From: Escherichia phage vB_EcoP-Ro103C3lw
Sequence record: MN067430
Length of the DNA stretch: 39,389 nt
Reading direction: 5' to 3' (one strand)
Below are positions 1-39,389 of the stretch, one piece after another. Both the position numbers and the translations under genes were made by a program. Under the pieces are notes generated by a model. It was not told the DNA's origin, made no database searches, and was given only the letters and a program-made list of their open reading frames with translations. Numbering within the stretch: the first letter of the stretch is position 1; each line of letters starts with the position of its first letter.

Positions 1-191
1 TCTCACAGTTCAAGAACCTCAAGTCTCCCCCCATAGGGTCACTCTCAGTCAGACCAAAGGCCCTACCCCTAGACCGAAGGTCTAAACCTAAAGTCTTTGA
101 CCAGAAGTCAGGACCAGAAGTCTACCTCAAGGGCCTATATCTAGTGGTTGGGACCAGAGGTCGGGACTATATGTTGTGTCACTGAGTCTCT
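1..191. repeat. Left direct terminal repeat (DTR), 191 bp
   Basis: Bases 1..191 are identical to 39199..39389 by direct comparison; T7-like genomes carry terminal redundancy of this size (T7 160 bp). Confidence 0.95.
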
Positions 192-537
192 ATCTGTATT
201 AGCCTAGAGTCATCACCTCAGGTCATCACCTACAGTCTCACTACCTACAGTCAATCTATCAGTGATGTGACACCTACAGTCAAAGACCTACGGTCCGGTA
301 GACACTCAGATTGACCTATCGTTTATCAGAGACCTTAGGTCTAGTCTCACAGGTTATCGTTATAGTCTCTGTTTAGCAGTCAGGGAGACTATCAGTCTGA
401 CTAGGGTTATTGTTGGTGTCTACCAACTGGACTCTTATTATCCATAGTCAGGACTTAAAGTCCATCATCTGTAGTCGTTATTGGTCTACCTTATAGAGTC
501 ACTGGACTACTGTATAAATTAACATGATAAATAGTTG

Positions 538-566
538 TTGACGTTTAGTCTGACCTATGAGACTAT
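538..566 (+). promoter_or_regulatory. Host sigma70-type early promoter, T7 A1-like
   Basis: TTGACG (538..543), 17-nt spacer, GACTAT (561..566); spacer tttagtctgacctatga closely resembles the T7 A1 promoter spacer as recalled. Confidence 0.55.
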
Positions 567-678
567 AGCTTCCGTCAACACGACACGGCAACAACCGGAT
601 AGTGAAGACGCCGGGTCATCCCGGTTAAGTAGACAGCCTGATAAGTCATACGAACAACAGGCAGATGACAGAAAGTAG

Positions 679-708
679 TTGACAAGATGTACCGACTTAA
701 AGTAGTAT
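679..708 (+). promoter_or_regulatory. Host sigma70-type early promoter, T7 A2/A3-like
   Basis: TTGACA (679..684), 18-nt spacer, TAGTAT (703..708). Confidence 0.5.
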
Positions 709-1165
709 GGACCACATCGAAGCAACGGTGACGACCGACACTAAATGGTCTACCTGAAGTCCACTGACTGAAAGGAATGCTCTTTAATAATATGACCGTG
801 TATTGATAGGCTTACTAACAACATAGGGTAACTATCATGGATTACAATCAGTTGAATTGGGAATGGTTGGCATACGAGGCCGCCTATGAAGATATGCTGA
901 ATGCGAGTGCATATGTTTGCAGTGATTGCGATGCAATAAGTATTCATGAGGCGATAACAGACCATTTAGCATTTTACAGGAAGTTTGTAGCGTGAGATAG
1001 CTGGCACTAGCCAGCCTATCACTACACGGTCATGCTCTTTAACAATCTGGATAAACTCTTAATGTGCGCCGATAGCGACTAACTACAGGGTCTTTGAGTC
1101 TACATCTGAAGGCCCTGACTGATAGTCACTAACATACACACAAACAACTTTGAGAGGATATAACT

Positions 1166-1498
1166 ATGGAACGTAACGCTAACGCATACTATGAGCTGCT
1201 GGCTGCAACCGTTGAAGCATTTAACGAGCGTATTCAGTACGACGAAATAGCTGAAGGCGATGATTATCACGATGCGCTGCATGAGGTCGTAGACGGTCAG
1301 GTTCCGCACTATTACCACGAGATTTTCACGGTGATGGCTGCTGATGGTATAGACCACGAGTTCGAAGACTATGGGCTAATGCCTGATACCAAGGATGTGA
1401 CGCGTATATTGCAAGCTCGCATCTATGAGGCGCTTTATAACGATGTGCTTAATAACTCGGATGTGGTCTGGTTTGAGGCTGAAGAGGACTGCGAGTGA
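1166..1498 (+). CDS. ocr: Ocr-like DNA mimic, anti-restriction protein (T7 gp0.3 homolog)
   Basis: 110 aa, very acidic; motifs [52 protein letters not shown] match T7 Ocr as recalled; SD gagagg upstream of ATG. Confidence 0.9.
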
Positions 1499-1653
1499 TG
1501 GTAACTTATGGTCTCTGCCAGAACCATGTAGCCAACGCCCGGATTATGGTCAAGACCGGGCAGTTAAACCACGATGCGACTATGCGTCACCTGAAGGCGG
1601 TCTATGAGGGACGCAAGCGTATTCACGACAGCTTACACGATGAGGGCAAGTAA
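1498..1653 (+). CDS. Small early protein, 51 aa, possible gp0.4-like
   Basis: ATG overlaps the ocr stop (TGATG); same length as T7 gp0.4 with weak pattern similarity (YGL...LK..YE); not in the ORF track because it is under 60 aa. Confidence 0.45.
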   Translation: MVTYGLCQNHVANARIMVKTGQLNHDATMRHLKAVYEGRKRIHDSLHDEGK

Positions 1654-1655
1654 AC

Positions 1656-1781: not shown

Positions 1782-1851
1782 GTGATAGACGAGAGGTCAT
1801 CGACTGATAGGTGGCCTCAAAGATTGCCACTTACATTGATAGGAGTTAACT

Positions 1852-1941
1852 ATGAACATCGGTTACTGGGTATGCTTATCTCCGGTCATCTTTCTGATAG
1901 CTTGGGGACTTCTGGACGCAATCAAGCGAGGGTCATTCTAA
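1852..1941 (+). CDS. Hypothetical small hydrophobic peptide, 29 aa
   Basis: SD AGGAG 7 nt upstream of ATG 1852; translation MNIGYWVCLSPVIFLIAWGLLDAIKRGSF. Confidence 0.4.
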   Translation: MNIGYWVCLSPVIFLIAWGLLDAIKRGSF

Positions 1942-2138
1942 TGAGCTGGGTACTTATGGGTATCTTCGGCTATGGACTTATCGTCTACGTACTGGTGAGT
2001 GACATCAACAAGGCGCGTAAAGTCTACAAATTCAACTATGTACGTATGGGTCGCTGGACTGTACGTCAACCTAACGGGCGATTCATGCGCAACTTAGCAA
2101 ACGTCTGGGATATAGCAACACTTGGGAGCAAACTGTAA
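1941..2138 (+). CDS. Hypothetical small membrane protein, 65 aa
   Basis: ATG overlaps the preceding stop (TAATG); hydrophobic stretch WVLMGIFGYGLIVYVLV; the supplied ORF 1782..2138 extends it upstream from a GTG that lacks an SD. Confidence 0.45.
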   Translation: MSWVLMGIFGYGLIVYVLVSDINKARKVYKFNYVRMGRWTVRQPNGRFMRNLANVWDIATLGSKL

Positions 2139-2464
2139 TGAACAAGTCATACGGGATTAATCTGGTACACTCTATGGACGCAGACATGCAAATGTTAAGC
2201 CTACTGGCTACCGGGTATCGTCACGGAACGTCAAGTCACTCCGCACGTCAACAGCAGGAGAGGGACCGGGTACTGCAAGCAAGACTCCGGGCTGAGGGCC
2301 ATAAGTCCGAGCTGATGTGTCTGGCGTATGGTGGACGACCAATCACCGATGATGGTAAACTTCTGGTCTCAGGCTGGAAGGCGATAGACCAACGGTCAAC
2401 CATCAAGCACACGACTCATGGTGACTTCAGTCATCTCCACGCTAACCCGCTGATATGCAAGTAG
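2138..2464 (+). CDS. Hypothetical early protein, 108 aa
   Basis: ATG overlaps the upstream stop (TAATG); sits where T7 has gene 0.7 but is far shorter and has no recognisable kinase motifs. Confidence 0.5.
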   Translation: MNKSYGINLVHSMDADMQMLSLLATGYRHGTSSHSARQQQERDRVLQARLRAEGHKSELMCLAYGGRPITDDGKLLVSGWKAIDQRSTIKHTTHGDFSHLHANPLICK

Positions 2465-2469: not shown

Positions 2470-2492
2470 ATTAAACCCTCACTATAGGACTC
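2470..2492 (+). promoter_or_regulatory. Phage RNAP promoter, immediately upstream of the RNAP gene
   Basis: attaaaccctcactataggac; +1 G at 2487. Confidence 0.75.
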
Positions 2493-2560: not shown

Positions 2561-5227
2561 ATGAGCGTCATTCAGCTTGAGAAGCATGACTTCTCGGACA
2601 TCTCCAACGCTATCGAGCCGTTTAACATTCTGGCTGACCACTACGGGCAGGACCTCGCAGTCAAACAGCTTCAGCTTGAGCATGAGGCATACACTGAAGG
2701 CGAGCGTCGTTTCATCAAGAATCTTGAGCGTCAGGCTGAGCGCGGGGGGCTGGCTGATAATCAGGTCGCAAGACCATTGATGCAAACTCTGGTCCCTAAA
2801 CTGGCGCAAGCCGTCAAGGAGTGGCACGAGACCCAAGGGTCAACCCGTGGGAAACCTCAGGTCGCCTTCCTGAAGCTGAGCACCGAGTCGAAACCTCGTG
2901 CGCTACTGGTCCAACCCGAGTCGGTGGCGGTCATCGTCCTGAAGATTGCGCTCAGTAAGCTGGTCAAGCCTGAAGGCGTACCGATAACGCCGATGGCCTC
3001 CGCGATTGGTCGCACACTGGAGGATGAAATCCGTTTCGGTCGCATCCGTGACCAAGAGCAAGAGCACTTCAAGAAGACCATCGCCGAGAACCTGAAGAAA
3101 CGCGCTGGCGTGGCCTACAAGAAAGCCTACATGCAAGCGGTCGAAGCCTCCATGCTGGACCAGAAGCAACTGGATGATGCGTGGGGGACTTGGAGTCCTG
3201 ACGAGGCGGTCCACGTAGGAATAAAGATGCTGGAGCTGCTGATTCAATCCACACAACTGGTAGAGCTGAAGCGACACAACGCTGGGAACGTAGCGTCAGA
3301 CGTCGAGATGGTCCACCTGTCAGACTTCTGGGCCAAGAAGATGGCTCAGCGAGGCTACAGCCTTGCGGGTATCGCTCCGGTCTACCAGCCGTGCGTCGTG
3401 CCTCCACGCCCTTGGAACTCAGTGGTCGGTGGTGGGTACTGGGCTAAAGGTCGCAGACCTCTCCCGCTGATGCGCTTAGGGTCGAAGGCTGCTATCGCTC
3501 GCTACGAGGAAGTTTACATGCCTGAAGTCTACGAGGCGGTGAACATCATTCAGCAGACACCGTGGAAGGTGAATAAGAAGGTGCTGGACGTAGTGAACAT
3601 GGTCGAGAAGCTGAACAATACGCCTATCGCAGACATCCCGCAGATGGACCCGATGAAGCCTGAGGAGTACGCAGGTGAGACCGAGGAAGAACTTAAAGCG
3701 TGGAAGAAAGCTGCTGCTGGAATCTATCGCCGCGAGAAGGCCCGACAGTCCCGCCGCTTGTCCCTGAGCTTCATCGTCGGACAGGCGAACAAGTTCTCTC
3801 AGTTCAAGGCCATCTGGTTCCCGTACAACATGGATTGGCGCGGTCGAGTCTACGCGGTCCCGATGTTCAACCCGCAAGGCAACGACATGCAGAAGGGTCT
3901 GCTGACTCTGTCAGTCGGCAAGCCAATCGGTGCGGACGGCTTCAAGTGGCTGAAGGTTCACGGTGCAAACTGCGCGGGTGTCGATAAAGTCACCTTCGAG
4001 GAGCGCATCAAGTGGGTCGAAGACAACCACGACAACATCCTCGCGGCTGCTAAGAGTCCGATGGATAGCATCGACTGGTGGGGCAAGTTAGACTCTCCGT
4101 TCTGCTTCCTCGCGTTCTGCTTCGAGTATGCCGGGGTCATGCACCACGGGCTGAGCTACTCCTGCTCACTGCCTATAGCGTTCGATGGGTCCTGCTCTGG
4201 GATTCAACACTTCAGCGCGATGCTCCGTGACCACGTTGGTGGACATGCGGTCAACCTAACGCCAAGCGGGAAGGTCCAAGACATCTACCGCATTGTGTCC
4301 GACCGGGTGGAAGAACAGCTTAAGGAACTACTGGTAAACGGTAGCGACAACGAAGTCAAGACCTTCGAGGACAAGAAGACAGGCGAAATTACTGAACGTC
4401 TGGTCCTTGGAACTCGTGAGCTGGCCCGTCAGTGGCTGACCTACGGGATGTCACGCACGGTCACTAAACGCTCGGTCATGACTCTGGCCTACGGGTCGAA
4501 GGAATACGGGTTCGCAGACCAAGTGTTTGAGGATACCGTGATGCCAGCGATTGACAACGGCAAGGGCGCGATGTTCACGGACCCAAGCCAAGCGTCCCGC
4601 TTCATGGCTAAGATGATTTGGGATGCAGTGAGCGTGACCGTAGTTGCTGCGGTAGACGCGATGAAGTGGCTCCAAGGCGCTGCTAAACTGCTGGCTGCTG
4701 AGGTCAAGGACAAGAAGACCAAAGAGGTCCTGAAGCCTTGCCTCCCGGTTCACTGGGTCACGCCTGATGGCTTCCCGGTCTGGCAGGAGTATCGCAAGAA
4801 GGACACCACACGTCTTGACCTGATGTTCCTCGGGACTTTCCGTCTCCAGCCGACAGTCAACAAGGGGTCGAGCAAGGAGCTGGACAAGCACAAGCAGGAG
4901 TCAGGCATCAGCCCGAACTTTGTACACTCACAAGACGGCAGTCACCTGAGGAAGACTGTGGTCCACACCCACCGCAAGTATGGCGTGATGTCCTTCGCAG
5001 TGATTCACGATAGCTTCGGGACCATCCCGGCTGACGCTGAGTTCCTGTTCAAAGGTGTCCGTGAGACGATGGTCGAGACCTACCGCGACAACGATGTGCT
5101 GCAAGACTTCTACGAGCAGTTCGCGGACCAGCTTCACGAGAGCCAGCGCGACAAGTTGCCTGAGCTTCCAAAGCGCGGTAAACTGAACATCGAAGACATT
5201 CTGTTATCTGACTTTGCATTCGCCTGA
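2561..5227 (+). CDS. gp1: Single-subunit DNA-directed RNA polymerase (T7 gp1 homolog)
   Basis: 888 aa; long conserved blocks versus T7 RNAP, e.g. WFPYNMDWRGRVYAVPMFNPQGNDM, HGANCAGVDKV, PIAFDGSCSGIQHFSAML, KRSVMTLAYGSKE, NFVHSQDGSHLRKTVV, ends SDFAFA. Confidence 0.97.
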   Translation: MSVIQLEKHDFSDISNAIEPFNILADHYGQDLAVKQLQLEHEAYTEGERRFIKNLERQAERGGLADNQVARPLMQTLVPKLAQAVKEWHETQGSTRGKPQVAFLKLSTESKPRALLVQPESVAVIVLKIALSKLVKPEGVPITPMASAIGRTLEDEIRFGRIRDQEQEHFKKTIAENLKKRAGVAYKKAYMQAVEASMLDQKQLDDAWGTWSPDEAVHVGIKMLELLIQSTQLVELKRHNAGNVASDVEMVHLSDFWAKKMAQRGYSLAGIAPVYQPCVVPPRPWNSVVGGGYWAKGRRPLPLMRLGSKAAIARYEEVYMPEVYEAVNIIQQTPWKVNKKVLDVVNMVEKLNNTPIADIPQMDPMKPEEYAGETEEELKAWKKAAAGIYRREKARQSRRLSLSFIVGQANKFSQFKAIWFPYNMDWRGRVYAVPMFNPQGNDMQKGLLTLSVGKPIGADGFKWLKVHGANCAGVDKVTFEERIKWVEDNHDNILAAAKSPMDSIDWWGKLDSPFCFLAFCFEYAGVMHHGLSYSCSLPIAFDGSCSGIQHFSAMLRDHVGGHAVNLTPSGKVQDIYRIVSDRVEEQLKELLVNGSDNEVKTFEDKKTGEITERLVLGTRELARQWLTYGMSRTVTKRSVMTLAYGSKEYGFADQVFEDTVMPAIDNGKGAMFTDPSQASRFMAKMIWDAVSVTVVAAVDAMKWLQGAAKLLAAEVKDKKTKEVLKPCLPVHWVTPDGFPVWQEYRKKDTTRLDLMFLGTFRLQPTVNKGSSKELDKHKQESGISPNFVHSQDGSHLRKTVVHTHRKYGVMSFAVIHDSFGTIPADAEFLFKGVRETMVETYRDNDVLQDFYEQFADQLHESQRDKLPELPKRGKLNIEDILLSDFAFA

Positions 5228-5240: not shown

Positions 5241-5441
5241 ATGAAATTCGCACACAAGCAAACTGGCGTTAAAGGCGGTACTCAAATCGTGACTGTGACC
5301 GAGCACAACGGAAAGGGTCTGGCGAAGACCACGATTATCCCGACCGAGATGTCCAAGCAACTTAACGTCCCGTTCAAATGGCTGGTGCAGAAGGTCGAAC
5401 AGGCCCACGAACAGGCCCTAACCGAGGCAGCAACGAAATGA
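5241..5441 (+). CDS. Hypothetical protein, 66 aa
   Basis: SD aggagg 5 nt upstream of ATG 5241; no homolog recognised. Confidence 0.5.
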   Translation: MKFAHKQTGVKGGTQIVTVTEHNGKGLAKTTIIPTEMSKQLNVPFKWLVQKVEQAHEQALTEAATK

Positions 5442-5520
5442 CAGACCTTAAGTGGCTGGCCTTATGGCTAGCCTTCTTAGCAGTGTACATTTTAATCCAA
5501 CGCAGAAGAGGCTAATCACC

Positions 5521-5976
5521 ATGTTCAACCGTAAACTGAAAGCACGTATCGCATCTCTTGAAGCAACCGTCCAGCGTCAGGACCGCAACCTTGAGCTGGC
5601 TAACCGGGAGCACTCACGACTGAGGGCCAAGATTCAGAAGGCTGAAGAGAAACGTGAAGTCGACCCATTCCGTGTGAAGCGCATGGTCGGCCTGAAGTTC
5701 AAGGCGCTGTTCAATGGTCTATACCAGCCTACTGAGTTCAAGACCGGACCGGGGCCGTGTGGCAAGACAGTTACGCACTTCACCACGAGTCGGACCGAGC
5801 GTGAGCTGACCATCCACCAGCACCACACGGATGGCTCTCAGAAGGACTTCGAGTATCGACTGAGTGACATCGACGGTCGCATCCAGTACGACTACGAGAC
5901 CGTGCTAGTCTACGGAGAAGAGGCAGAACGGGAGCGAGCACACTACGTCTTCCTGAGACGTCAACGGTTCGCTTAA
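5521..5976 (+). CDS. Hypothetical protein, about 151 aa, with predicted coiled-coil N-terminus
   Basis: Open frame 5452..5976; ATG 5521 chosen as the most likely start (MFNRKLKARIASLEATVQRQDRNLELANREHSRLRAKIQKAEEKR); no homolog recognised. Confidence 0.5.
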   Translation: MFNRKLKARIASLEATVQRQDRNLELANREHSRLRAKIQKAEEKREVDPFRVKRMVGLKFKALFNGLYQPTEFKTGPGPCGKTVTHFTTSRTERELTIHQHHTDGSQKDFEYRLSDIDGRIQYDYETVLVYGEEAERERAHYVFLRRQRFA

Positions 5977-5994
5977 ACCCTCACTATAGGATTA
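5972..5994 (+). promoter_or_regulatory. Phage RNAP promoter (gene 1.1 position)
   Basis: gcttaaaccctcactataggatt; +1 G at 5989. Confidence 0.8.
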
Positions 5995-6062: not shown

Positions 6063-6242
6063 ATGTATCAGAACACCATCAACTTCGAGCGCATCCGTGA
6101 ACGTCAGCAGACTGAAGGATACATGCCTAAGGGCCGCAAGCTGAACAAGACCAAACGTGGCGGTGGCGTCAAGGGTGCTTTCCGCAACGCTGAAGGTAAA
6201 GACTCTCTGGTCAACCAAGAGAAGTATTTCGTAGGAGCATAA
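6063..6242 (+). CDS. gp1.1: gp1.1-like small basic protein, 59 aa
   Basis: KGRKLNKTKRGGG motif resembles T7 gp1.1 (KGRKLNKTKRD); not in the ORF track because it is under 60 aa. Confidence 0.7.
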   Translation: MYQNTINFERIRERQQTEGYMPKGRKLNKTKRGGGVKGAFRNAEGKDSLVNQEKYFVGA

Positions 6243-6246: not shown

Positions 6247-6510
6247 ATGGGCCGACTTTACAGTGGCAACCTCAACGCTTTCAAAGCAGCGTGTAACAGG
6301 CTCTATCAGCTAGACTTCGCTGTCATTTCTCAGGAGTTTCAAGACCTTGCGTCACGCCAAGAGTGCATGAGACTCAGGGTCGAGGACCGGGCTGGTAACA
6401 TATTCGCTCTTGAGTCCTTCGCACACTACGACGAAGACGTACTGTACAATACTGCAACCGACTTCCTTAATGGTCTCGCTGACCAACTCGACACATGGAG
6501 CAAATCATAA
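6247..6510 (+). CDS. gp1.2: gp1.2-like inhibitor of host dGTPase
   Basis: 87 aa; MGRLYSGNLNAFKAA...RLRVEDRAGN...HYDEDVLYN matches T7 gp1.2 as recalled. Confidence 0.85.
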   Translation: MGRLYSGNLNAFKAACNRLYQLDFAVISQEFQDLASRQECMRLRVEDRAGNIFALESFAHYDEDVLYNTATDFLNGLADQLDTWSKS

Positions 6511-7571: not shown

Positions 7572-7581
7572 CTAAACGTCA

Positions 7582-7617
7582 ACCCAGTGGTCTTCGCGGA
7601 CTGCTGGGTTTCTTTGC
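7582..7617 (+). terminator. Intrinsic terminator after the ligase gene (T7 TE position)
   Basis: Hairpin acccag...ctgggt followed by tttctttg. Confidence 0.55.
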
Positions 7618-7628: not shown

Positions 7629-7651
7629 TTTAAACCCTCACTATAGGACAA
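7629..7651 (+). promoter_or_regulatory. Phage RNAP promoter
   Basis: tttaaaccctcactataggaca; +1 G at 7646. Confidence 0.8.
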
Positions 7652-7677: not shown

Positions 7678-7932
7678 ATGTCTAAGAACTTAATGTTCAA
7701 CCGTTTCAGTCAGACCTTCCACCTGTCCAACAATCCGTTTGCTTGCATTAAGCGTAACGAGAAGGTGGGCTTCTTCGGGAAGGCCGTTAAGCTGGCACCT
7801 ACAGTCTACGCTCTGATTGTTCCGAGCAAAGTAGAAGAGGCTCGCCAGAAGAAAGAGACCAGCGTACCAGTGGTCTACACCAAGTGGCCTCGCGTTCGTC
7901 TGGCGCTGGAGTTCATCAAGGAGGAGTTCTAA
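7678..7932 (+). CDS. Hypothetical protein, 84 aa (gene 1.5/1.6 position)
   Basis: SD aaggag before ATG 7678; position-based assignment only. Confidence 0.55.
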   Translation: MSKNLMFNRFSQTFHLSNNPFACIKRNEKVGFFGKAVKLAPTVYALIVPSKVEEARQKKETSVPVVYTKWPRVRLALEFIKEEF

Positions 7933-8309: not shown

Positions 8310-8387
8310 CTGGTGCTTTAGGCAGTGGGTCTCAACCGGGAACGTGGACTACCTGTCCATGTACCATATGTGGAAGGAGAAAGGACT

Positions 8388-8564
8388 ATGACCGTTTACC
8401 GTGGCATCTTCGGGTCTCTGTACGCAGTGAACCAACACGGAGTCGTCTGCGTTAAGCCTGACGGTAGCGAGTGGTGCGCATCACATTACAGTGTCGAGGG
8501 ATTCCAAGACGCTATTGATAAAGGCTACATGACGGAGGTGGTCGATGCCCAAGGAGTCAACTGA
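8388..8564 (+). CDS. Hypothetical protein, 58 aa (gene 1.8 position)
   Basis: SD ggaaggag before ATG 8388; the supplied ORF begins upstream at 8325. Confidence 0.45.
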
Positions 8565-10983: not shown

Positions 10984-12690
<1,707 letters not shown>

Positions 12691-22473: not shown

Positions 22474-22487
22474 CTTAAGGAGGGCCT

Positions 22488-33176: not shown

Positions 33177-33194
33177 ACCCTCACTATAGGAAAC
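33172..33194 (+). promoter_or_regulatory. Phage RNAP promoter (gene 17 position)
   Basis: gattaaaccctcactataggaaac; +1 G at 33189; leader contains the hairpin gggacgctaccacaggtccc. Confidence 0.8.
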
Positions 33195-33240: not shown

Positions 33241-35331
33241 ATGGCTAATACCACTATTACGCAGTTCCCTACTGGGCAGACTCAGTACAAGATTAACTTT
33301 GACTATCTGGCCCGGACCTTCGTGGTGGTCACTTTAATCAACAGTGCTGACCAAGCGGACAACAAGGTCCTGACGGTAGGTAATGACTATCGGTTCATCA
33401 CTGCCACGACTATTGAGCTTCTGGCCGACCAGACGGGCTTCGATATTGTCCAGATTCACCGCTTCACGGGGACCGGACTTCTGGTCAGCTTCCGTGACGG
33501 CTCGGTCCTGACTGCCAACGACTTAACCACGTCCGAGCTTCAGGCTATCCATATCGCCGAGGAGGGCCGAGACCAGACTTCAGGTCTTGCCAAGCAGTAT
33601 GCGGACCAAGCGATTGCTGCTGGTACTGACGCTCAGTCTATCTTAGACAACATCATCAAGATGGGAAAGAACGGTTACACTCCAGTTGGCTCCTTTGAGG
33701 CCGGGGCGACCGTCAACCTTCAGAATGACGCTGTTCAGTTTGGCACTGGTGCTGCTATTACTCACTGGCGCTGGGAAGGCACACTACCTAAAGTCGTTCC
33801 ACCTAACTCGACACCAACGTCTACTGGTGGTATCGGTCACGGTAAGTGGATTGACGTAACGGACGCGACTCTGCGTGGTGCGCTGGCTCAACTGACTGGT
33901 GCCTCTCTGGTCATGACCTCTAACGGTAAGACCGTGGAGGAGCGCCTGTCTGGGACCTTACGTGTCGTGGACTCGGTGAAGGACTTGGAGTCGCTGGTTC
34001 CGCAGCAGGACGGTGAGATTGTCATCGCTCGTTGGGCTGCTTATCCGAAGCTGGTGGGCGTCAACTGTGGTCCGGTGGGCGGCGGTATGTTCATCGCCTA
34101 CAACGACAATCCGGCAGTCCCTAAAGATGGTGGCTTCTTTGTGGACAGTCCGTCTCCGACCCTTAAGTGGCGACGTATGGCTGAGAACACAGGCTATTAT
34201 CCGGTTGCTTGGTGGGGCGTAATTCCTGATCACTATACCGATAACGCTGACAACATCACTCGTGCGCACAACTTTGCGAAGCGAGCTTGGCGTGTTCTTC
34301 AGTACGACTTCGGTACATACCTGACGTCCAAGGCTGTTCCAATCTACAGTCGCATGGGCATCAAGGGGACCGGACGTGCTGACGGTACTGTCATTGCCAA
34401 GACCACGAACGATGCGTTCAACCTGCTCAAAGCTGACGGCACTGTAGGTGAGGCCGTGGATGCTCTGGCAGTAATGGTCCCTGATGCTTACGACCGAGCG
34501 TCTCCTTACATGGACAGCTTCTGTATCCACGGACGTATCGAGGACATTATGTTTAAACGTAATGGTCTCTCAGAGGCTAACTACAACACCATGCGTCCTC
34601 AGTATGGTCTGTTCATGAACAAGGGTGGCTCACCTGTCCTCAAGCATACCAACTTCGAGGGTGCGTATATCGGCATTCGAGCCTACGTGTGCTTCTCGTC
34701 AACCATCTCTGCGGTCGCCACAACCAACTGGCGCGGCAAGGGTTACGCTGGTCTTTATATTGAGGACTACCGTGATGGCAGCTTGATGTCTTCAGGCACG
34801 AGTAATGACATCCGTCTGTTCCAATCCCGAGGGTATCAGCATGGGGTAAGCATGTCCCGTATGCAGTACACCACGATGATCAACTGCTCTGTAGAGGAGT
34901 GCTTCAAGTCTCCGGGTGAAACTTACGCTTACGCCTATAAGTTCATCGACCCGTTCTCTATTCATCTCTCCACCTGCGCGACTGAGTTCGTTGAAGGCGG
35001 TCAGATTCAGATTACAGGCTTCGCTAACCCCGGATTCAGACCGTCCATCACTATCACCGAATACTTTGCGGTTGACCAGCAGAACCCTGCTACGGCCCAC
35101 AATATCATCGACATTGATAATGGTGGTGTTGCACGGTGTACGGTCAAGGTTATTGGTGGTGACTGGACGCATGACCCTCGCACACCTAACGTGGGTTCCC
35201 CTAGAGCTGCTGGTTCTGGGACTGTAGTCACTACTATCGGGACCACTGGCGCTGAAGGTCCTAACTGGCTGCTGAGCGGTGGTGCTAAAGTGGTTGACAT
35301 CGAGAACGCTACGAACACACGGAGTTCTTAA
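33241..35331 (+). CDS. gp17: Tail fibre protein (T7 gp17 homolog; N-terminal anchor conserved, C-terminal region divergent)
   Basis: 696 aa; N-terminal ~150 aa ([14 protein letters not shown]...VLT.GNDYRF...[12 protein letters not shown]...IHIAEEGRD) matches T7 gp17; the remaining ~550 aa show no T7-like similarity. Confidence 0.9.
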
Positions 35332-35371: not shown

Positions 35372-35566
35372 ATGATTGAGTTCGACTTCAAGAATGAGGT
35401 CCTCAAAGCCTCGCCTATCGTCGGGACCGCTGCGGCTGATGGTGCCAGTCGGTTCTTCTTTGGGTTAACACTCAACGAATGGTTCTACGTCGCTGCCATC
35501 GCGTACACCGTGGTGCAGATTGGCGTCCTAATTTACAAGACGATTAAGAGCGGAGGTAAGACATGA
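35372..35566 (+). CDS. gp17.5: Class II holin (T7 gp17.5 homolog)
   Basis: 64 aa from ATG 35372 (SD ggaggt); KASPIVGTAAADGASRFFFGLTLNEWFYVAAIAYTVVQIG is near-identical to the T7 holin. Confidence 0.9.
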   Translation: MIEFDFKNEVLKASPIVGTAAADGASRFFFGLTLNEWFYVAAIAYTVVQIGVLIYKTIKSGGKT

Positions 35567-35826
35567 CGCAGATGGACTTAGAGAAGTTCCTGTTAATGCT
35601 GGACACCGAACGTGCTCGACTAATGCTGCAAGACCTGCGGGATGACTCTAAGCGTTCGCCCCAGCTCTACAACTCCATCGAGAAGCTGCTGGCCCGTCAC
35701 AACTTTGTGTTAAGCAAGGTGTCGGTGGACGAGAAGCAGTTGGCAGACATGGAGGCGCTGAACCGAGAGTACGACAAGGTTCTCTCAGCGACCGAGGATA
35801 ATGACACCGGGTATGGTGTCCAGTAA
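35563..35826 (+). CDS. gp18: Terminase small subunit (T7 gp18 homolog)
   Basis: 87 aa; F.LMLDT..A..ML.DL.D..RSPQLYN.I.KLL.RH.F matches T7 gp18; ATG overlaps the holin stop (ATGA). Confidence 0.88.
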   Translation: MTQMDLEKFLLMLDTERARLMLQDLRDDSKRSPQLYNSIEKLLARHNFVLSKVSVDEKQLADMEALNREYDKVLSATEDNDTGYGVQ

Positions 35827-35882: not shown

Positions 35883-36254
35883 ATGGTATCGGAAGATGTT
35901 ATAAAGGCTAACGTTCAAGCTGCTCGTAAATTACGAGAGGAACGGGAGGAACGAAGAAAGAGGACTAAGCGCATTTCGCAGATAAAGAGCCTATATGGTC
36001 TCACGCTTGAACAGTTCGAGGACCTGATGGACTCGGTGGGAAGCTCATGCGAGATTTACAAGACTCCGCTTAAAGTAGGTGGGAAGAAAGGAGATACAGA
36101 CTCTGCGTGTATTGACCACTGTCATTCCACTGGGGTGATTAGAGGGGTTTTATGCCGCAAGTGCAATGCAGCAATTGGCGCACTGGGAGATACTACATCT
36201 AGTGTCCAGCGGGCTGTTTCATACCTAGAGAAGACGCTTGTACGTCGATTCTGA
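35883..36254 (+). CDS. Endonuclease VII-family protein (recombination endonuclease VII-like zinc/HNH-type nuclease)
   Basis: 123 aa; SLYGLTLEQFEDLM....SCEIY..........CIDHCHSTGVIRGVLCRKCNAAIGALGD fits the Endonuclease_7 family pattern (YG.T.E.Y......C..C.....DH.H.TG..RG.LC..CN...G); SD aggagg; no gene at this position in T7. Confidence 0.75.
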   Translation: MVSEDVIKANVQAARKLREEREERRKRTKRISQIKSLYGLTLEQFEDLMDSVGSSCEIYKTPLKVGGKKGDTDSACIDHCHSTGVIRGVLCRKCNAAIGALGDTTSSVQRAVSYLEKTLVRRF

Positions 36255-36272
36255 GAAATGAGGAGGGCAACT

Positions 36273-36722
36273 ATGCTCAAACTTTTACGACAGGCCGTTC
36301 CTTGGCTGGTGGCGGGACTCCTGTTCTGCTCAGGTTACTGGGTGGCAGACAATAAGTGGGAGGCGAAAGTAAGCAATGAGTACATCACGAAACTTGAGGC
36401 ACGAGAGAATCAACGGGCTGCTGTCCAAGGTGAAATCGACAAAGTGTCAGCCGAGTGGCAAGACAAGATGTCCGCGCTGGAAGGCTCTACTGATAGGATT
36501 ATTGCTGACCTTAACCGCGATAACAAGCGGCTGCGCATCCGTGTCAAACCCACCAGTGGAACAGTCCAGACTGACGGTCGATGCGTCATTGATGGTTACG
36601 CCGAACTTGACGAACGAGATGCTAAGCGTCTTATCACCATCGGACTGAAAGGTGACGAATGGATTAAGGCCCTCCAGAAGACCGTGAGAGCCATGCAGCA
36701 AGAGAAGGAGGTGAAACCTTGA
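36273..36722 (+). CDS. gp18.5: i-spanin (Rz-like, T7 gp18.5 homolog)
   Basis: [19 protein letters not shown]-terminal TM helix; [42 protein letters not shown]...[10 protein letters not shown] match T7 gp18.5; ATG 36273 with SD gaggagg. Confidence 0.88.
36376..36648 (+). CDS. gp18.7: o-spanin (Rz1-like, T7 gp18.7 homolog), embedded in the +1 frame of the i-spanin gene
   Basis: [23 protein letters not shown]: lipoprotein signal with lipobox Cys; SVDASLMV.PNLT.EML.V matches T7 gp18.7. Confidence 0.85.
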   Translation: MSTSRNLRHERINGLLSKVKSTKCQPSGKTRCPRWKALLIGLLLTLTAITSGCASVSNPPVEQSRLTVDASLMVTPNLTNEMLSVLSPSD

Positions 36723-38482
36723 GTCAAGACTTAGCGGCGCGTCAGGCGCTTATGACTGCCCGTATGAAGGCAGACTTCGTGTTCTTCCTGTTCGTCCTGT
36801 GGAAAGCTCTGTCCCTCCCGGTCCCGACTCGCTGTCAGATTGACATGGCGAAGAAACTATCGGCTGGGGACAACAGGCGTTTCATCCTACAGGCGTTCCG
36901 TGGTATCGGGAAGTCCTTCATTACGTGTGCCTTCGTGGTCTGGAAGCTGTGGAATAACCCGGACTTGAAGTTCATGATTGTGTCGGCCTCAAAGGAACGT
37001 GCTGACGCTAACTCCATCTTCATCAAGCGAATCATCGACCTGATGCCTCAGCTCCAAGAGTTGAAGCCTAAGCAGGGCCAGCGAGACGCTGTAATCAGCT
37101 TTGACGTAGGGCCAGCCAAGCCAGACCACTCACCTTCGGTTAAGTCCGTGGGTATCACTGGTCAGCTTACTGGTAGCCGTGCGGACATCCTGATTGCCGA
37201 TGACGTGGAGGTTCCGGGTAACTCAGCGACTCAGGCTGCGAGAGACCGACTGTCCGAGCTGGTAAAAGAGTTCGACGCAATCCTGAAGCCGGGCGGTACG
37301 GTTATCTATCTGGGTACTCCTCAGACCGAGATGACCTTGTATCGTCAGCTTGAGGGTCGCGGCTACTCTACGACTATCTGGCCTGCCCGGTATCCACGCG
37401 ATGAGAAGGACTGGAAGTCTTACGGAGACCGTCTGGCTCCGATGCTTCAGGCTGAGCTTGAGTCCGACCCTGAGGGCTACTACTGGCTCCCAACGGATGA
37501 GGTGCGCTTTGATGACGAGGACCTGAAGGAACGTGAGTTGTCCTACGGTAAGGCTGGCTTCGCTCTCCAGTTCATGCTCAACCCTAACCTAGGGGATGCT
37601 GAGAAGTACCCGCTGAAGCTCCGTGACCTTATCGTAGCGGACTTGGACCCTGAGTCCAGCCCTATGGTCTACCAGTGGCTCCCGAACCTCCAGAACAAGC
37701 GGGATGACGTTCCTAACGTGGGACTCATGGGTGACACCTACCACACGTATCAAACTGTAGGTTCTGCTTTCAGTTCGTACACCCAGAAGATTCTGGTCAT
37801 TGACCCTAGTGGTCGTGGTAAGGATGAGACGGGCTATGCGGTACTGTATCAGCTCAACGGCTACATCTTCGTGATGGAAGCTGGTGGTATGCGCGGTGGC
37901 TATGAGGACTCTACGCTGGAAGCTCTGGCGAAGATTGGGCGCAAGTGGAAGATTAACGAGTACGTCATTGAGGGTAACTTCGGTGATGGTATGTACCTCG
38001 AACTATTCAAGCCTGTAGCGGCCCGTATCCACCCGGCAGCAGTGACCGAGGTCAAGAGCAAGGGTCAGAAGGAACTACGCATCTGCGACGTTCTGGAGCC
38101 TATCATGGGGTCTCACCGACTCATCGTGAATGCTTCAACCATTGTGTCTGACTACCAGACAGCCTCTGATAAGGATGGCGTCCGTAACCCTATCTACTCT
38201 CTGTTCTACCAGATGACCCGTATCAGCCGTGAACGTGGAGCCTTGGCACACGATGACCGACTTGATGCGCTGGCTATCGGTGTACAGTTCTTCGTAGAGT
38301 CTATGGCTAAGGATGCCGTGAAGGGCCAGCGTGAAGTCACCGAGGAGTGGCTGGAGGAGCAGATGGAAGACCCGAAGAAAGGCTTTAAGTCCATCGAGAC
38401 GGACTACTGGGACAATGGGGTACGAGTCCAGTTCAATACAGATGATGACTTGGGCTTAGGGTCCTACGTTCAGTTCCACTAG
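36719..38482 (+). CDS. gp19: Terminase large subunit (T7 gp19 homolog)
   Basis: 587 aa; [120 protein letters not shown]; apparent TTG start after SD aaggaggtg. Confidence 0.96.
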
Positions 38483-38574
38483 CAGTTTTCATAAAGTACC
38501 GCTTTAGTTGCATGAATACGCACTATGTAAGTCGGTACATAACGCTCGTAACTCTATGTATTCCTTAGGAAAAT

Positions 38575-38597
38575 CTTATACCCTCACTATAGGAAAG
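38575..38597 (+). promoter_or_regulatory. Phage RNAP promoter near the right end (phiOR position)
   Basis: cttataccctcactataggaaag; +1 G at 38592. Confidence 0.75.
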
Positions 38598-38770
38598 ACC
38601 CCGGTTACTTATAGTAAAGACTCAATGAATAATCATATGCAGACTTTATGCAAGACCTTAGGAGGCAGACTCCTGAGTTCTTACCTAAGGTTCGCACCGA
38701 TGGAGAGGGTGATTGTAATCATCACACCCTCATAACTTAAGTAGACCCTAAGCGACAGGAGGTATGTAGC

Positions 38771-38929
38771 ATGGGTAAGACCAAAGCTGTTCTCAAAGCT
38801 CTGGCGACCAATAGAGCTACGTACAGGTTTCTTGCTGCTGTTCTACTTGCTGCTGGCGTTACTGCTGGAAGTCAGTGGGTCGGGTGGGTCGAGACTCTCG
38901 TATGTACTCTGGTGTCTGAGTGTCATTAA
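38771..38929 (+). CDS. Hypothetical small hydrophobic protein, 52 aa (gene 19.5 position)
   Basis: SD aggagg before ATG 38771; hydrophobic core LAAVLLAAGVTAG; not in the ORF track because it is under 60 aa. Confidence 0.45.
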   Translation: MGKTKAVLKALATNRATYRFLAAVLLAAGVTAGSQWVGWVETLVCTLVSECH

Positions 38930-39198
38930 TGCCATCATGGTAACAATCAACGAAAGGAGGTAGTATGATCGGTTACGGCGAAGGCTGAAGACCTAAGGTC
39001 AGTACGTGGATAAAGACTCACTCTACTGACCTTAGCTACTGTAGTCAAGGACTTTAGGTAACACCTTAAGAGAAGCTCACTTAGGGTCATCCTACTTACT
39101 GGTCTACCCTAGTGTCGCCTGACCTACGGTCCTTGACCTACAGTGGCTGTGGCCTACAGTAGGGACGATGAGTTTTGGACCAAAAGTTCGAGAGGCCA

Positions 39199-39389
39199 TC
39201 TCACAGTTCAAGAACCTCAAGTCTCCCCCCATAGGGTCACTCTCAGTCAGACCAAAGGCCCTACCCCTAGACCGAAGGTCTAAACCTAAAGTCTTTGACC
39301 AGAAGTCAGGACCAGAAGTCTACCTCAAGGGCCTATATCTAGTGGTTGGGACCAGAGGTCGGGACTATATGTTGTGTCACTGAGTCTCT
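39199..39389. repeat. Right direct terminal repeat (DTR), 191 bp
   Basis: Exact copy of 1..191. Confidence 0.95.

What the first reader, a model, noticed from the sequence alone, without database searches (positions are those of the whole stretch)
1..39389. Complete T7-like phage genome with 191-bp direct terminal repeats
Bases 1..191 are repeated exactly at 39199..39389, and everything between follows T7 gene order on one strand. The window therefore appears to be a whole packaged genome (unique length about 39.2 kb), with the repeat marking the concatemer junction. The promoter consensus (AACCCTCACTATAGGA) is neither T7 (GACTCACTATAGGGAGA) nor T3 (CCCTCACTAAAGGGAGA), and Ocr is present while the 0.7 kinase is absent, so this is a distinct lineage within the T7 group.
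Basis: partly seen in the sequence, partly recalled or inferred. Interest (0 to 1): 0.5.

Follow-up and report, generated by a model that had tools for sequence, protein, structure and literature searches.

The report
Known K1F-like phage genome, Ro103C3lw

Summary
Bases 1-191 are repeated exactly at 39199-39389. All homology-supported genes lie on the + strand in T7 order. Twelve phage-polymerase promoters share the core AACCCTCACTATAGG. Ocr is present, and the 0.7 kinase and the SAM hydrolase are absent.

The window is not a new lineage. Nine of ten proteins tested are letter-for-letter those of Escherichia phage vB_EcoP-Ro103C3lw, on a contig of exactly 39,389 bp. That phage was published in 2021, with 191-bp direct terminal repeats (DTRs) called from sequencing reads by PhageTerm. 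It is now the species Kayfunavirus EcoPRo103C3lw. Identical bases over the unique length are 0.80 to GW1 and Pisces, 0.72 to K1F, and 0.43-0.45 to T7 and T3.

The promoter matches T3 at the specificity positions -12 to -8 (ACCCT). The polymerase carries the matching T3-type loop residues (Asp at T7 position 748, Arg at 756). K1F and Pisces use ACTAT with Asn at 756. The Ocr/no-kinase early module is shared with K1F but not with the closest relatives, so it does not define a lineage.

Side observations: a 255-bp insertion with a 52-aa ORF, a near-orphan gene upstream of gene 6, two free-standing homing-type endonucleases, and an O103-type tailspike.

Verdict: correct, already known, low interest.

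The parts
1..191 (+). Left direct terminal repeat (DTR)
   Evidence: Exact copy of 39199-39389. Starts with TCTCACAGT as in T7, K1F and Pisces, and the boundary ...GTCTCT|ATCTGT is conserved. PhageTerm DTR of 191 bp in PMC8303462.
39199..39389 (+). Right direct terminal repeat (DTR)
   Evidence: Exact copy of 1-191. The preceding sequence ...GGACCAAAAGTTCGAGAG.CCA| is conserved in K1F, GW1 and Pisces.
538..566 (+). Host sigma-70 early promoter, homologue of T7 A1 (TTGACG-17-GACTAT)
   Evidence: Read from the sequence and aligned by offset to T7 A1. Function inferred.
679..708 (+). Host sigma-70 early promoter, A2-like (TTGACA-18-TAGTAT)
   Evidence: 10 of 12 consensus positions. Same position as T7 A2. 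Function inferred.
764..791 (+). Candidate third early promoter (CTGACT-16-AATAAT)
   Evidence: 9 of 12 consensus positions. Weak, inferred.
777..1031 (+). 255-bp insertion relative to K1F, Pisces and GW1, holding a 52-aa ORF (837-995). It begins with a near-copy (777-794) of the native sequence that follows it (1032-1049) and has inverted arms of about 21 nt (about 792-814 and 1010-1033).
   Evidence: Shared with one IMG/VR contig. No hit in the phage or E. coli collections.
1166..1498 (+). Gene 0.3, Ocr DNA mimic (anti-restriction)
   Evidence: PF08684, E = 1.1e-31. 56% identity to T7 Ocr over 94 aa (64% over the best 78 aa) and 85% to K1F gp0.3 over 123 aa (92% over the first 103 aa).
1495..1653 (+). 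Small early gene (K1F 0.4 position)
   Evidence: phrog_5058, E = 4.5e-27. 72% identity to K1F.
1782..2138 (+). Early ORF, 0.6-like (start uncertain)
   Evidence: phrog_2385 and phrog_36394. 83% identity to K1F 0.6.
2138..2464 (+). Early hypothetical gene
   Evidence: phrog_7066, E = 6e-46.
2470..2492 (+). Phage promoter directly upstream of gene 1 (+1 at 2487)
   Evidence: 36.2 bits. Conserved in K1F and GW1.
2561..5227 (+). Gene 1, single-subunit RNA polymerase (888 aa). Specificity loop RLDLMFLGTFRLQ.
   Evidence: PF00940, E = 1.5e-105. Identity 98.5% to GW1, 92% to Pisces, 89% to K1F, 64% to T7 and T3.
5241..5441 (+). Small gene after gene 1
   Evidence: phrog_8082, E = 1e-39.
5452..5976 (+). 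T3 gene 1.05-like protein (start may be 5521)
   Evidence: PF25755, E = 1.3e-26.
5972..5994 (+). Phage promoter (phi1.1 position)
   Evidence: 35.9 bits.
6063..6242 (+). Gene 1.1-like
   Evidence: 97% identity to Pisces. Weak hit to T7 gp1.1, E = 0.005.
6247..6510 (+). Gene 1.2, dGTPase inhibitor homologue
   Evidence: 58% identity to T7 gp1.2.
6495..7571 (+). Gene 1.3, DNA ligase
   Evidence: 49% identity to T7, 80% to Pisces.
7581..7616 (+). Early terminator, TE-like (13-bp stem followed by UUUCUUUG)
   Evidence: Fold -25.4 kcal/mol, z = -3.2. Same place as T7 and T3 TE, after the ligase gene.
7629..7651 (+). Phage promoter (phi1.5/1.6 position)
   Evidence: 34.9 bits.
7678..7932 (+). Gene 1.6
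   Evidence: 40% identity to T7 gp1.6, 96% to Pisces.
7932..8309 (+). Gene at the 1.7 position (no T7 gp1.7 homology)
   Evidence: phrog_35442, E = 2e-59. 94% identity to Pisces.
8296..8391 (+). Gene 1.8
   Evidence: 100% identity to Pisces, weak hit to T7 gp1.8.
8545..8715 (+). Gene 2, host RNA polymerase inhibitor
   Evidence: 46% identity to T7 gp2, 98% to Pisces.
8711..8733 (+). Phage promoter (phi2.5)
   Evidence: 33.3 bits.
8759..9457 (+). Gene 2.5, ssDNA-binding protein
   Evidence: 47% identity to T7, 98% to Pisces.
9460..9912 (+). Gene 3, endonuclease I
   Evidence: 63% identity to T7.
9909..10133 (+). Hypothetical gene
   Evidence: 83% identity to Pisces.
10123..10581 (+). Gene 3.5, amidase/lysozyme
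   Evidence: 68% identity to T7.
10596..10808 (+). Hypothetical gene
   Evidence: 100% identity to Pisces.
10809..10831 (+). Phage promoter (phi3.8/4 position), variant AACACTCACTAAAGGG. Its 16-nt core is identical to T3 phi3.8.
   Evidence: 29.3 bits. Compared with T3 10612.
10987..12690 (+). Gene 4, primase/helicase
   Evidence: 64% identity to T7, 99% to Pisces.
12735..12899 (+). Hypothetical gene
   Evidence: 85% identity to Pisces.
12895..12917 (+). Phage promoter upstream of gene 5
   Evidence: 30.9 bits.
12973..15144 (+). Gene 5, DNA polymerase (uninterrupted, unlike K1F)
   Evidence: 54% identity to T7, 95% to Pisces.
15144..15428 (+). Gene 5.5-like
   Evidence: 44% identity to K1F 5.5.
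15425..15634 (+). Gene 5.7
   Evidence: 78% identity to T7 gp5.7.
15631..15906 (+). Hypothetical gene (Ro103_28)
   Evidence: phrog_2251. Exact match to QDH94176.1.
15899..16207 (+). Near-orphan gene (Ro103_29, 102 aa) at the T7 gp5.9 position. Strong ribosome-binding site, and its stop overlaps the gene 6 start.
   Evidence: No Pfam or PHROG hit. No DNA match in the phage collection. 2 hits in 5.8e9 proteins and 4 in 1.84e9 representatives. Sequence read.
16200..17066 (+). Gene 6, exonuclease
   Evidence: 52% identity to T7.
17188..17210 (+). Phage promoter (phi6.5)
   Evidence: 35.2 bits.
17274..17546 (+). Gene 6.5
   Evidence: 35% identity to T7, 92% to Pisces.
17558..17782 (+). Gene 6.7
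   Evidence: 49% identity to T7.
17787..18188 (+). Gene 7-position protein
   Evidence: 97% identity to Pisces, 76% to K1F.
18181..18432 (+). Gene 7.3
   Evidence: 41% identity to T7 gp7.3.
18447..20015 (+). Gene 8, portal (head-tail connector)
   Evidence: 69% identity to T7, 98% to K1F.
20011..20033 (+). Phage promoter (phi9)
   Evidence: 36.2 bits.
20113..20988 (+). Gene 9, scaffolding protein
   Evidence: 45% identity to T7.
20987..21009 (+). Phage promoter (phi10), AATATACCCTCACTATAGGGAGA
   Evidence: 31.5 bits. The only site within 3 mismatches of the T3 23-mer.
21115..22164 (+). Gene 10A, major capsid protein
   Evidence: 70% identity to T7.
22137..22427 (+). Slippery heptamer G GTT TTC (22137-22143) and the -1 frame extension giving 10B (predicted 437 aa)
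   Evidence: Same heptamer in the same codon phase as T7 at 23986. The -1 frame is open to 22427. Frameshifting itself is inferred.
22430..22476 (+). Late terminator, Tphi-like (18-bp stem plus U7)
22488..23054 (+). Gene 11, tail tubular protein A
   Evidence: 49% identity to T7.
23066..25432 (+). Gene 12, tail tubular protein B
   Evidence: 48% identity to T7, only 72-73% to K1F and Pisces. A singleton cluster at 90% identity.
25457..25479 (+). Phage promoter (phi13). A crossover from GW1-like to Pisces-like sequence lies here.
   Evidence: 32.9 bits. Alignment.
25519..25980 (+). Gene 13
   Evidence: 43% identity to T7, 96% to Pisces.
25965..26552 (+). Gene 14, internal virion protein B
   Evidence: 37% identity to T7.
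26564..28846 (+). Gene 15, internal virion protein C
   Evidence: 47% identity to T7, 99.6% to Pisces.
28849..29298 (+). Free-standing HNH homing-type endonuclease inserted between genes 15 and 16
   Evidence: PF13392, E = 2e-14. phrog_59. 49% identity to T7 gp7.7. Absent at this site in Pisces, K1F and GW1.
29280..33176 (+). Gene 16, internal virion protein D (transglycosylase)
   Evidence: 53% identity to T7, 98% to Pisces.
33172..33194 (+). Phage promoter (phi17)
   Evidence: 37.5 bits. Alignment.
33241..35331 (+). Gene 17, tailspike. N-terminal T7 tail adaptor plus a receptor-binding and depolymerase domain of the O103-phage tailspike type.
   Evidence: PF03906 and PF18668. The C-terminal 486 aa are 44% identical to the tailspikes of O103 phages PAS7 and TL-2011b. 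PMC11522302 and PMC8303462.
35372..35566 (+). Gene 17.5, holin
   Evidence: 71% identity to T7, 99% to Pisces. Start chosen.
35563..35826 (+). Gene 18, small terminase subunit
   Evidence: 50% identity to T7, 99% to Pisces.
35883..36254 (+). Free-standing endonuclease VII-family gene inserted between genes 18 and 18.5
   Evidence: PF02945, E = 3.5e-18. phrog_2914. Absent in T7, K1F and Pisces.
36258..36722 (+). Gene 18.5, i-spanin
   Evidence: 52% identity to T7.
36376..36648 (+). Gene 18.7, o-spanin, embedded in gene 18.5
   Evidence: 53% identity to T7, 100% to Pisces.
36719..38482 (+). Gene 19, large terminase subunit
   Evidence: 65% identity to T7, 99% to Pisces.
38575..38597 (+). Phage promoter (phiOR position)
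   Evidence: 35.2 bits.
38771..38929 (+). Gene 19.5
   Evidence: 100% identity to Pisces. T7 gp19.5 hit at E = 0.001.

Best explanation
The window is the complete linear, terminally redundant genome of Escherichia phage vB_EcoP-Ro103C3lw (species Kayfunavirus EcoPRo103C3lw, subfamily Studiervirinae). This is a lytic K1F-like relative of T7 that infects Shiga-toxin-producing E. coli O103. The unique length is 39,198 bp.

The mechanism below is inferred by homology with T7. Host RNA polymerase starts at two or three sigma-70 promoters near the left end. It transcribes the early genes (Ocr, the phage RNA polymerase and others) up to a hairpin terminator after the ligase gene. The phage polymerase then transcribes the rest of the genome from 12 cognate promoters, with a strong terminator after gene 10.

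The polymerase has T3-type specificity-loop residues: Asp at T7 position 748, Arg at 756 and Gln at 758. All 12 promoters carry the matching ACCCT (or a close variant) at -12 to -8.

Replication would give head-to-tail concatemers with one repeat copy per junction. The gp18/gp19 terminase would cut at the conserved ends, and the 191-bp repeat would be duplicated during packaging.

Host range is set by a tailspike whose receptor-binding domain is related to those of other O103 phages.

The genome is a mosaic of modules found in other Kayfunavirus phages. The early region is K1F-like, the polymerase and capsid are GW1-like, and genes 13-16 and 18.5-19 are Pisces-like. A few insertions are added to this.
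For: Identity. Nine of ten proteins tested match GenBank proteins of vB_EcoP-Ro103C3lw exactly (QDH94156-QDH94202), on a contig of 39,389 bp, which is the window length. The paper on this phage reports 39,389 bp, two 191-bp DTRs by PhageTerm, a new Kayfunavirus species with GW1 as closest relative, and a tailspike with depolymerase activity (PMC8303462). The species is listed in the NCBI taxonomy.

Ends. The 191-bp repeat is exact. The left terminus TCTCACAGT and the repeat/unique boundary are conserved with T7, T3, K1F and Pisces. Pisces has a PhageTerm DTR of 190 bp at the homologous place.

Genus. Identical bases over the unique length are 0.80 for GW1, 0.80 for Pisces, 0.72 for K1F, 0.43 for T7 and 0.45 for T3.

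Gene order and strand.

Promoters and polymerase loop. The published pairing of residue and base is 748D with ACCCT and 756N with ACTAT (PMC11880802 Table 2).

Other features: terminators, the gene 10 slippery site, and the tailspike.
Against: The genome record itself did not appear in the 'phages' BLAST collection, where the best relatives reach about 80% overall. Identity therefore rests on exact protein matches and the contig length, not on a nucleotide alignment to the deposited record. One of the ten proteins, the ligase read from the ATG at 6495, was not found exactly; this is most likely a different annotated start. Transcription, frameshifting, packaging and promoter recognition are inferred from homology and were not measured here.
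Confidence: 0.97

Rival explanations
1. The 191-bp repeat is an assembly artefact: an overlap left when a circular or circularly permuted assembly was linearised. On this view it does not mark physical ends.
For: Such artefacts occur. The GW1 record (L005) starts inside gene 16 and has an exact 127-bp end overlap. I read this, by inference, as a k-mer overlap.
Against: The window starts at the base homologous to base 1 of T7, T3, K1F and Pisces (TCTCACAGT). The inner boundary of the repeat falls at the conserved ...TCTCT|ATCTGT junction. The repeat length is close to K1F (178 bp) and Pisces (190 bp, PhageTerm). PhageTerm analysis of this phage's reads gave 191-bp DTRs (PMC8303462).
Confidence: 0.02
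2. The window represents a new lineage of the T7 group, outside the described genera, as its promoter and early-gene content might suggest.
For: The promoter 23-mer matches neither T7 nor T3 exactly. The nearest genomes in the phage collection are below 95%.
Against: Nucleotide similarity over the genome is 0.72-0.80 to Kayfunavirus members including the type phage K1F. The proteins are exact matches to a deposited and classified phage. The same promoter set and polymerase loop occur in GW1, B1, EcpYZU01 and SFP21B.
Confidence: 0.01
3. The phage belongs with T3 (Teetrevirus), because its promoters and polymerase specificity loop are of the T3 type.
For: Positions -13 to -3 of the consensus are identical to T3. 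The polymerase has Asp at T7 position 748, as T3 does. The phi3.8-position promoter core is identical to T3 phi3.8.
Against: The polymerase is only 64% identical to that of T3, against 98.5% to GW1. Genome similarity to T3 is 0.45. Position -2 is T as in T7, not A. There is no phiOL, no SAM hydrolase and no 0.7 kinase.
Confidence: 0.01

Closest known systems
Escherichia phage vB_EcoP-Ro103C3lw (species Kayfunavirus EcoPRo103C3lw; Zhang et al. 2021, PMC8303462)
   Same: Same length (39,389 bp) and same 191-bp DTR. Nine of ten tested proteins are identical, including the near-orphan and the tailspike.
   Different: Nothing detected. The paper does not discuss promoters (0 occurrences of the word). 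It states that the gp2 host-polymerase inhibitor is absent from the reference phages, whereas tblastn finds it in K1F (87.5%) and Pisces (98%).
Cronobacter phage GW1 (Kayfunavirus GW1)
   Same: 0.80 identical bases. The RNA polymerase is 98.5% identical with the same specificity loop. All 12 promoters lie at homologous positions with the same ACCCT-type core.
   Different: GW1 carries a SAM hydrolase and a 244-aa kinase instead of Ocr. Its tailspike differs. It lacks the two endonuclease insertions and the near-orphan gene. Its record is permuted.
Escherichia phage Pisces (Kayfunavirus)
   Same: 0.80 identical bases. Genes 15, 16, 18.5 and 19 are 96-99.6% identical at protein level. It has a 190-bp PhageTerm DTR at the same terminus.
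   Different: Its promoters are ACTAT-type and its polymerase has Asn at T7 positions 748 and 756. It has a SAM hydrolase and a kinase and a different tailspike.
Escherichia phage K1F (type phage of Kayfunavirus)
   Same: Same gene order. Ocr is present and there is no 0.7 kinase. A promoter lies directly upstream of gene 1 and there is no phiOL. DTR of 178 bp.
   Different: 0.72 identical bases. ACTAT-type promoters. Its gene 0.3 is 59 aa longer. Its gene 5 is interrupted by an HNH gene. Its tailspike is an endosialidase.
Phages T7 (Teseptimavirus) and T3 (Teetrevirus)
   Same: Collinear gene map on one strand. Own RNA polymerase and promoters. DTRs with the same terminal sequence. TE and Tphi terminators. 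The gene 10 slippery site G GTT TTC.
   Different: 0.43-0.45 identical bases. The window has no genes 0.7, 5.9, 1.7, 4.3 or 4.5 and no phiOL. The promoter core combines T3-like -12 to -8 with T7-like -2.

Membership tests
T7 group (Autographiviridae / Autotranscriptaviridae, subfamily Studiervirinae) | Encodes its own single-subunit RNA polymerase | tested here: met
   888-aa protein with PF00940 (E = 1.5e-105) and PF14700. 64% identical to the T7 and T3 polymerases.
T7 group (Autographiviridae / Autotranscriptaviridae, subfamily Studiervirinae) | All genes on one strand, collinear with T7 | tested here: met
   Ascending T7 coordinates for about 33 genes, with one mobile HNH gene out of order. 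The seven largest minus-strand ORFs have no PHROG family.
T7 group (Autographiviridae / Autotranscriptaviridae, subfamily Studiervirinae) | Short direct terminal repeats at fixed physical ends | tested here: met
   Exact 191-bp repeat with termini conserved with T7, T3 and K1F. The physical ends could not be measured here, but they are reported from PhageTerm in PMC8303462.
T7 group (Autographiviridae / Autotranscriptaviridae, subfamily Studiervirinae) | A set of cognate phage-polymerase promoters in front of middle and late genes | tested here: met
   12 sites of at least 29 bits, all on the + strand and all intergenic or at gene ends. The next best site scores 5.6 bits. Their use by the polymerase was not tested.
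Genus Kayfunavirus | At least about 70% nucleotide similarity over the genome to genus members (ICTV genus criterion, from general knowledge) | tested here: met
   Identical bases over the unique length: K1F 0.72, GW1 0.80, Pisces 0.80.
Species Kayfunavirus EcoPRo103C3lw | At least 95% nucleotide identity to the exemplar genome | tested here: inconclusive
   The exemplar record was not available for nucleotide alignment.
Teseptimavirus (T7) and Teetrevirus (T3) | At least about 70% nucleotide similarity to T7 or T3 | tested here: not met
   0.43 to T7 and 0.45 to T3.
T3-type promoter specificity class | Asp at T7 position 748 with Arg 756 and Gln 758 in the specificity loop, paired with ACCCT at promoter positions -12 to -8 | tested here: met
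   Loop RLDLMFLGTFRLQ. ACCCT at 10 of 12 sites, with variants ACACT and TCCCT at the other two. The pairing rule is taken from PMC11880802 Table 2.
T3-type promoter specificity class | Actual recognition of these promoters by the polymerase, and orthogonality to the K1F-type ACTAT promoters | not testable with these tools
   Needs in vitro or in vivo transcription assays.
Ocr DNA-mimic anti-restriction proteins | Sequence membership in the Ocr family | tested here: met
   PF08684, 109.7 bits against a cut-off of 25. 56% identity to T7 Ocr over 94 aa. Anti-restriction activity was not tested.

The most novel reading that the evidence does not exclude
Two RNA polymerase/promoter specificity classes coexist within the genus Kayfunavirus, among polymerases that are 89-92% identical. 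One class has Asp748/Arg756 with ACCCT promoters (this phage and GW1). The other has Asn748/Asn756 with ACTAT promoters (K1F and Pisces).

This genome carries gene blocks that are 96-100% identical to the other class (Pisces genes 15, 16, 18.5 and 19). Even so, every one of its 12 promoters is of its own class. The exchanged blocks contain no promoters, and one crossover lies inside the invariant promoter core and leader of phi13.

The novel reading is that promoter specificity acts as a module-boundary constraint, a partial recombination barrier, in these phages. I did not find this stated for this phage or this genus.
Probability: 0.15. Interest if true: 0.4.

Novelty: already known. Interest (0 to 1): 0.08.

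Why it matters
It matters little as a discovery. The genome, its terminal repeats, its classification and its tailspike are all published. The check does show that the first-stage reader can recognise a complete T7-type genome and its ends from raw sequence. It also corrects the argument for distinctness, because the promoter type and the Ocr/kinase state are exchangeable modules within a known genus. The polymerase/promoter pair is a natural near-equivalent of the engineered 'T3-loop' orthogonal T7 system. The within-genus switch of promoter class could interest people who design orthogonal expression systems.

Tried and rejected
- Exact 30-31-mers from the tailspike and from the near-orphan gene found nothing in IMG/VR.
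- The near-orphan protein found no relative in IMG/VR.
- The 255-bp insertion and its 52-aa ORF found nothing in the E. coli genomes or the phage collection, at DNA or protein level, and match no PHROG family.
- The AlphaFold model of the near-orphan had a mean pLDDT of 52. I therefore ran no fold search, since matches would be meaningless.
- There are no tRNA genes and no Rfam family at gathering score.
- I looked for a phiOL-type phage promoter left of gene 0.3. None exists: the best site in the first 2.4 kb scores 0.2 bits.
- The consensus terminator scan missed TE, which was found by folding instead.
- The idea that the repeat is an assembly overlap was rejected (see rival explanations).
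- The ICTV 2025 summary paper matched 'Ro103C3lw' only outside its main text, so the species name is taken from the NCBI taxonomy.

Full report
**Observation**

The window is 39,389 bases long with 52.8% G+C. Its first 191 bases equal its last 191 bases exactly. 191 is the longest prefix that equals a suffix, and the first 30 bases occur only at positions 1 and 39199.

A weight matrix built from these sites scores them at 29-37.5 bits. The next best position on either strand scores 5.6 bits. The consensus from -17 to +3 is ATTAAACCCTCACTATAGGA. No site matches the T7 23-mer within three mismatches, and only phi10 matches the T3 23-mer.

**Gene content**

Translated comparison with T7, K1F and Pisces shows homologues of T7 genes 0.3, 1, 1.2, 1.3, 1.6, 1.8, 2, 2.5, 3, 3.5, 4, 5, 5.7, 6, 6.5, 6.7, 7.3, 8-19 and 19.5. 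They lie in ascending T7 order on the + strand. The only out-of-order hit is an HNH endonuclease gene at 28849-29298, which resembles T7 gp7.7.

The seven largest minus-strand ORFs match no phage protein family. There are no tRNA genes and no Rfam families.

- Ocr is present: PF08684 at E = 1.1e-31, and 56% identity to T7 Ocr over 94 aa.
- The kinases of T7, T3, GW1 and Pisces, and the SAM hydrolases of T3 and GW1, find nothing better than E about 1.
- A 13-bp hairpin followed by a U-rich tract comes after the ligase gene, the TE position. An 18-bp hairpin with seven U residues comes after gene 10, the Tphi position.
- The T7 slippery heptamer G GTT TTC sits at 22137 in the same codon phase as in T7. 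The -1 frame stays open to 22427, which predicts a 437-aa 10B protein.
- Two host-type promoters at 538-566 and 679-708 align with T7 A1 and A2.

**Are the ends real?**

The window begins with TCTCACAGT, as do T7, K1F and Pisces; T3 has TCTCATAGT. The junction between the repeat and unique sequence reads ...GTCTCT|ATCTGT, against ...GTCCCT|ATCTGT in T7 and T3. The sequence just before the right repeat is conserved in K1F, GW1 and Pisces.

Repeat lengths in relatives are 160 bp (T7), 231 bp (T3), 178 bp (K1F) and 190 bp (Pisces, annotated from PhageTerm). By contrast, the GW1 record starts inside gene 16 and has a 127-bp end overlap, which looks like an assembly overlap (my inference). The window's repeat therefore sits at the homologous physical terminus.

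**Identity**

The nearest genomes in the phage collection are K1F-like phages at 84-94% identity over 77-91% of the query. With a local BLAST, identical bases over the 39,198-bp unique length are 0.80 for GW1, 0.80 for Pisces, 0.72 for K1F, 0.43 for T7 and 0.45 for T3.

An exact-sequence look-up then showed that nine of ten window proteins are identical to GenBank proteins of Escherichia phage vB_EcoP-Ro103C3lw (QDH94156-QDH94202), on a contig of 39,389 bp. The tenth protein, the ligase read from 6495, probably has a different annotated start.

The paper on this phage (Zhang et al. 2021, PMC8303462) reports the following:

- a 39,389-bp genome;
- a new species of Kayfunavirus, closest to GW1 (87.78% identity, 86% coverage);
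- a unique tail fibre with depolymerase activity;
- a narrow host range on Shiga-toxin-producing E. coli O103.

The NCBI taxonomy lists the species Kayfunavirus EcoPRo103C3lw.

**The promoter and the polymerase**

K1F and Pisces use AACTATCACTATAGG. The window and GW1 use AACCCTCACTATAGG, which differs at -9 and -10. At -13 to -3 the window's consensus equals T3. At -2 it has the T of T7.

In the polymerase specificity loop, the window and GW1 have Asp at T7 position 748, as T3 does, with Arg at 756 and Gln at 758. K1F and Pisces have Asn at 748 and Asn at 756. All 15 listed members of the window's 90%-identity polymerase cluster share the Asp/Arg/Gln loop. These include phages B1, EcpYZU01 and SFP21B.

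This matches the published code, in which 748D pairs with ACCCT and 756N with ACTAT (Table 2 of PMC11880802, citing the loop-grafting work of Temme et al.). By sequence, though, the pair belongs to the T3 specificity class and is shared with several described phages.

Two details are worth noting. There is a promoter directly upstream of gene 1 (2470-2492), as in K1F and GW1, and no phiOL. The promoter at the phi3.8 position has the same unusual core, AACACTCACTAAAGGG, as T3 phi3.8.

**Mosaic structure**

A 500-bp sliding comparison shows the following:

- The early region 1000-2000 is K1F-like: 0.68-0.83 to K1F, against 0.12-0.37 to GW1 and Pisces.
- The polymerase and the capsid region are GW1-like (0.94-0.99).
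- Genes 13-16 and 18.5-19 are Pisces-like (0.93-1.00).

The genus holds two alternative early modules. The window, K1F and one IMG/VR contig have Ocr without a kinase. GW1 and Pisces have a SAM hydrolase plus a 244-aa kinase. The Ocr/kinase state therefore does not define a lineage.

The Pisces-like blocks contain no promoters. At phi13 the sequence changes from GW1-like upstream of the promoter core to Pisces-like in the leader. At phi17 the promoter and leader are GW1-like, although gene 16 just upstream is 98% Pisces-like. All 12 promoters thus remain of the cognate class despite exchange with phages of the other class. This rests on three reference genomes only and is offered as a lead.

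**Regions without counterparts in the close relatives**

- An HNH endonuclease gene between genes 15 and 16 (PF13392).
- An endonuclease VII-family gene between genes 18 and 18.5 (PF02945). By position and family, both are free-standing homing-type endonucleases.
- The tailspike C-terminal 486 aa. They are only 44% identical to the tailspikes of O103 phages PAS7 and TL-2011b. This agrees with PMC11522302, which treats them as homologous receptor-binding domains.
- A 102-aa ORF at 15899-16207, in the position of T7 gene 5.9. It has a strong ribosome-binding site, and its stop codon overlaps the gene 6 start. It has no Pfam or PHROG match. It has only one other relative among 5.8 billion proteins and four among 1.84 billion representatives. 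The relative sits at the same locus in another Kayfunavirus-like contig. Its AlphaFold model is of low confidence (pLDDT 52, three helices).
- A 255-bp insertion at 777-1031, between the early promoters and gene 0.3. It begins with a 16-of-18 copy of the native sequence that follows it and has inverted arms of about 21 nt. It carries a 52-aa ORF and is shared at 95% identity with one IMG/VR contig. It is found nowhere else that I searched.

**Conclusion**

The object is a complete genome of a published and classified Kayfunavirus phage, so it is already known and of low interest.

What was shown here:

- the repeat;
- the conservation of the termini;
- gene order and coding strand;
- the promoter set and the polymerase loop residues;
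- the identity of the proteins with those of Ro103C3lw.

What is inferred from homology with T7:

- the transcription programme;
- frameshifting in gene 10;
- concatemer processing and packaging;
- recognition of the promoters by the polymerase.

Noticed in passing
window 777-1049 (insertion 777-1031; ORF 837-995): A 255-bp insertion relative to K1F, Pisces and GW1, lying between the early host promoters and gene 0.3. It starts with a 16-of-18 copy (777-794) of the native sequence that follows it (1032-1049). It has inverted arms of about 21 nt (about 792-814 and 1010-1033) that enclose a 52-aa ORF with no known family. The layout resembles a small mobile or moron-like element. One IMG/VR contig (IMGVR_UViG_3300045988_000036) shares it at 95% identity, with perfectly complementary arms..
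   Followed up: partly
window 15899-16207: A 102-aa near-orphan gene (Ro103_29) at the position of T7 gene 5.9, which encodes the RecBCD inhibitor. It has a strong ribosome-binding site and is translationally coupled to gene 6. It has no Pfam or PHROG match, and only 4 weakly related proteins among 1.84 billion representatives. The AlphaFold model is of low confidence. It is a candidate anti-defence gene by position only..
   Followed up: partly
window 2470-38597 (12 promoters) and 2561-5227 (polymerase); L002, L003, L005: Two polymerase/promoter specificity classes exist within one genus: Asp748/Arg756 with ACCCT, and Asn748/Asn756 with ACTAT. The blocks exchanged with the other class (Pisces-like genes 13-16 and 18.5-19) contain no promoters. 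One crossover lies in the invariant core and leader of phi13..
   Followed up: partly
window 28849-29298 and 35883-36254: Two free-standing endonuclease genes (HNH_3 and endonuclease VII family) are inserted in the intergenic gaps 15/16 and 18/18.5. Both are absent at these sites in T7, K1F and Pisces, and they are probably homing endonucleases..
   Followed up: partly
window 1166-1498 versus L002 1114-1623: The Ocr of this phage (110 aa) lacks a 59-aa C-terminal segment that K1F gp0.3 (169 aa) has. Both proteins end in EEDCE, which suggests an in-frame deletion or insertion between short acidic repeats..
   Followed up: no
window 10809-10831; L004 10603-10625: The promoter in front of gene 4 has the core AACACTCACTAAAGGG. 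This is identical to T3 phi3.8 and differs from the other 11 promoters at -10 and -2. It is a position-specific variant conserved across genera (also in GW1)..
   Followed up: no
L005 (GW1 record NC_048161) ends: The GW1 record starts inside gene 16 and has an exact 127-bp repeat at its ends, while its true terminus homologue lies at record position 9795. The deposited ends look like an assembly overlap and not physical ends..
   Followed up: no
window 8545-8715: The published description of this phage says its host RNA polymerase inhibitor gene is absent from the reference phages. However, tblastn finds gp2 homologues in K1F (87.5%), Pisces (98%) and T7 (46%), so this is probably an annotation difference..
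   Followed up: no
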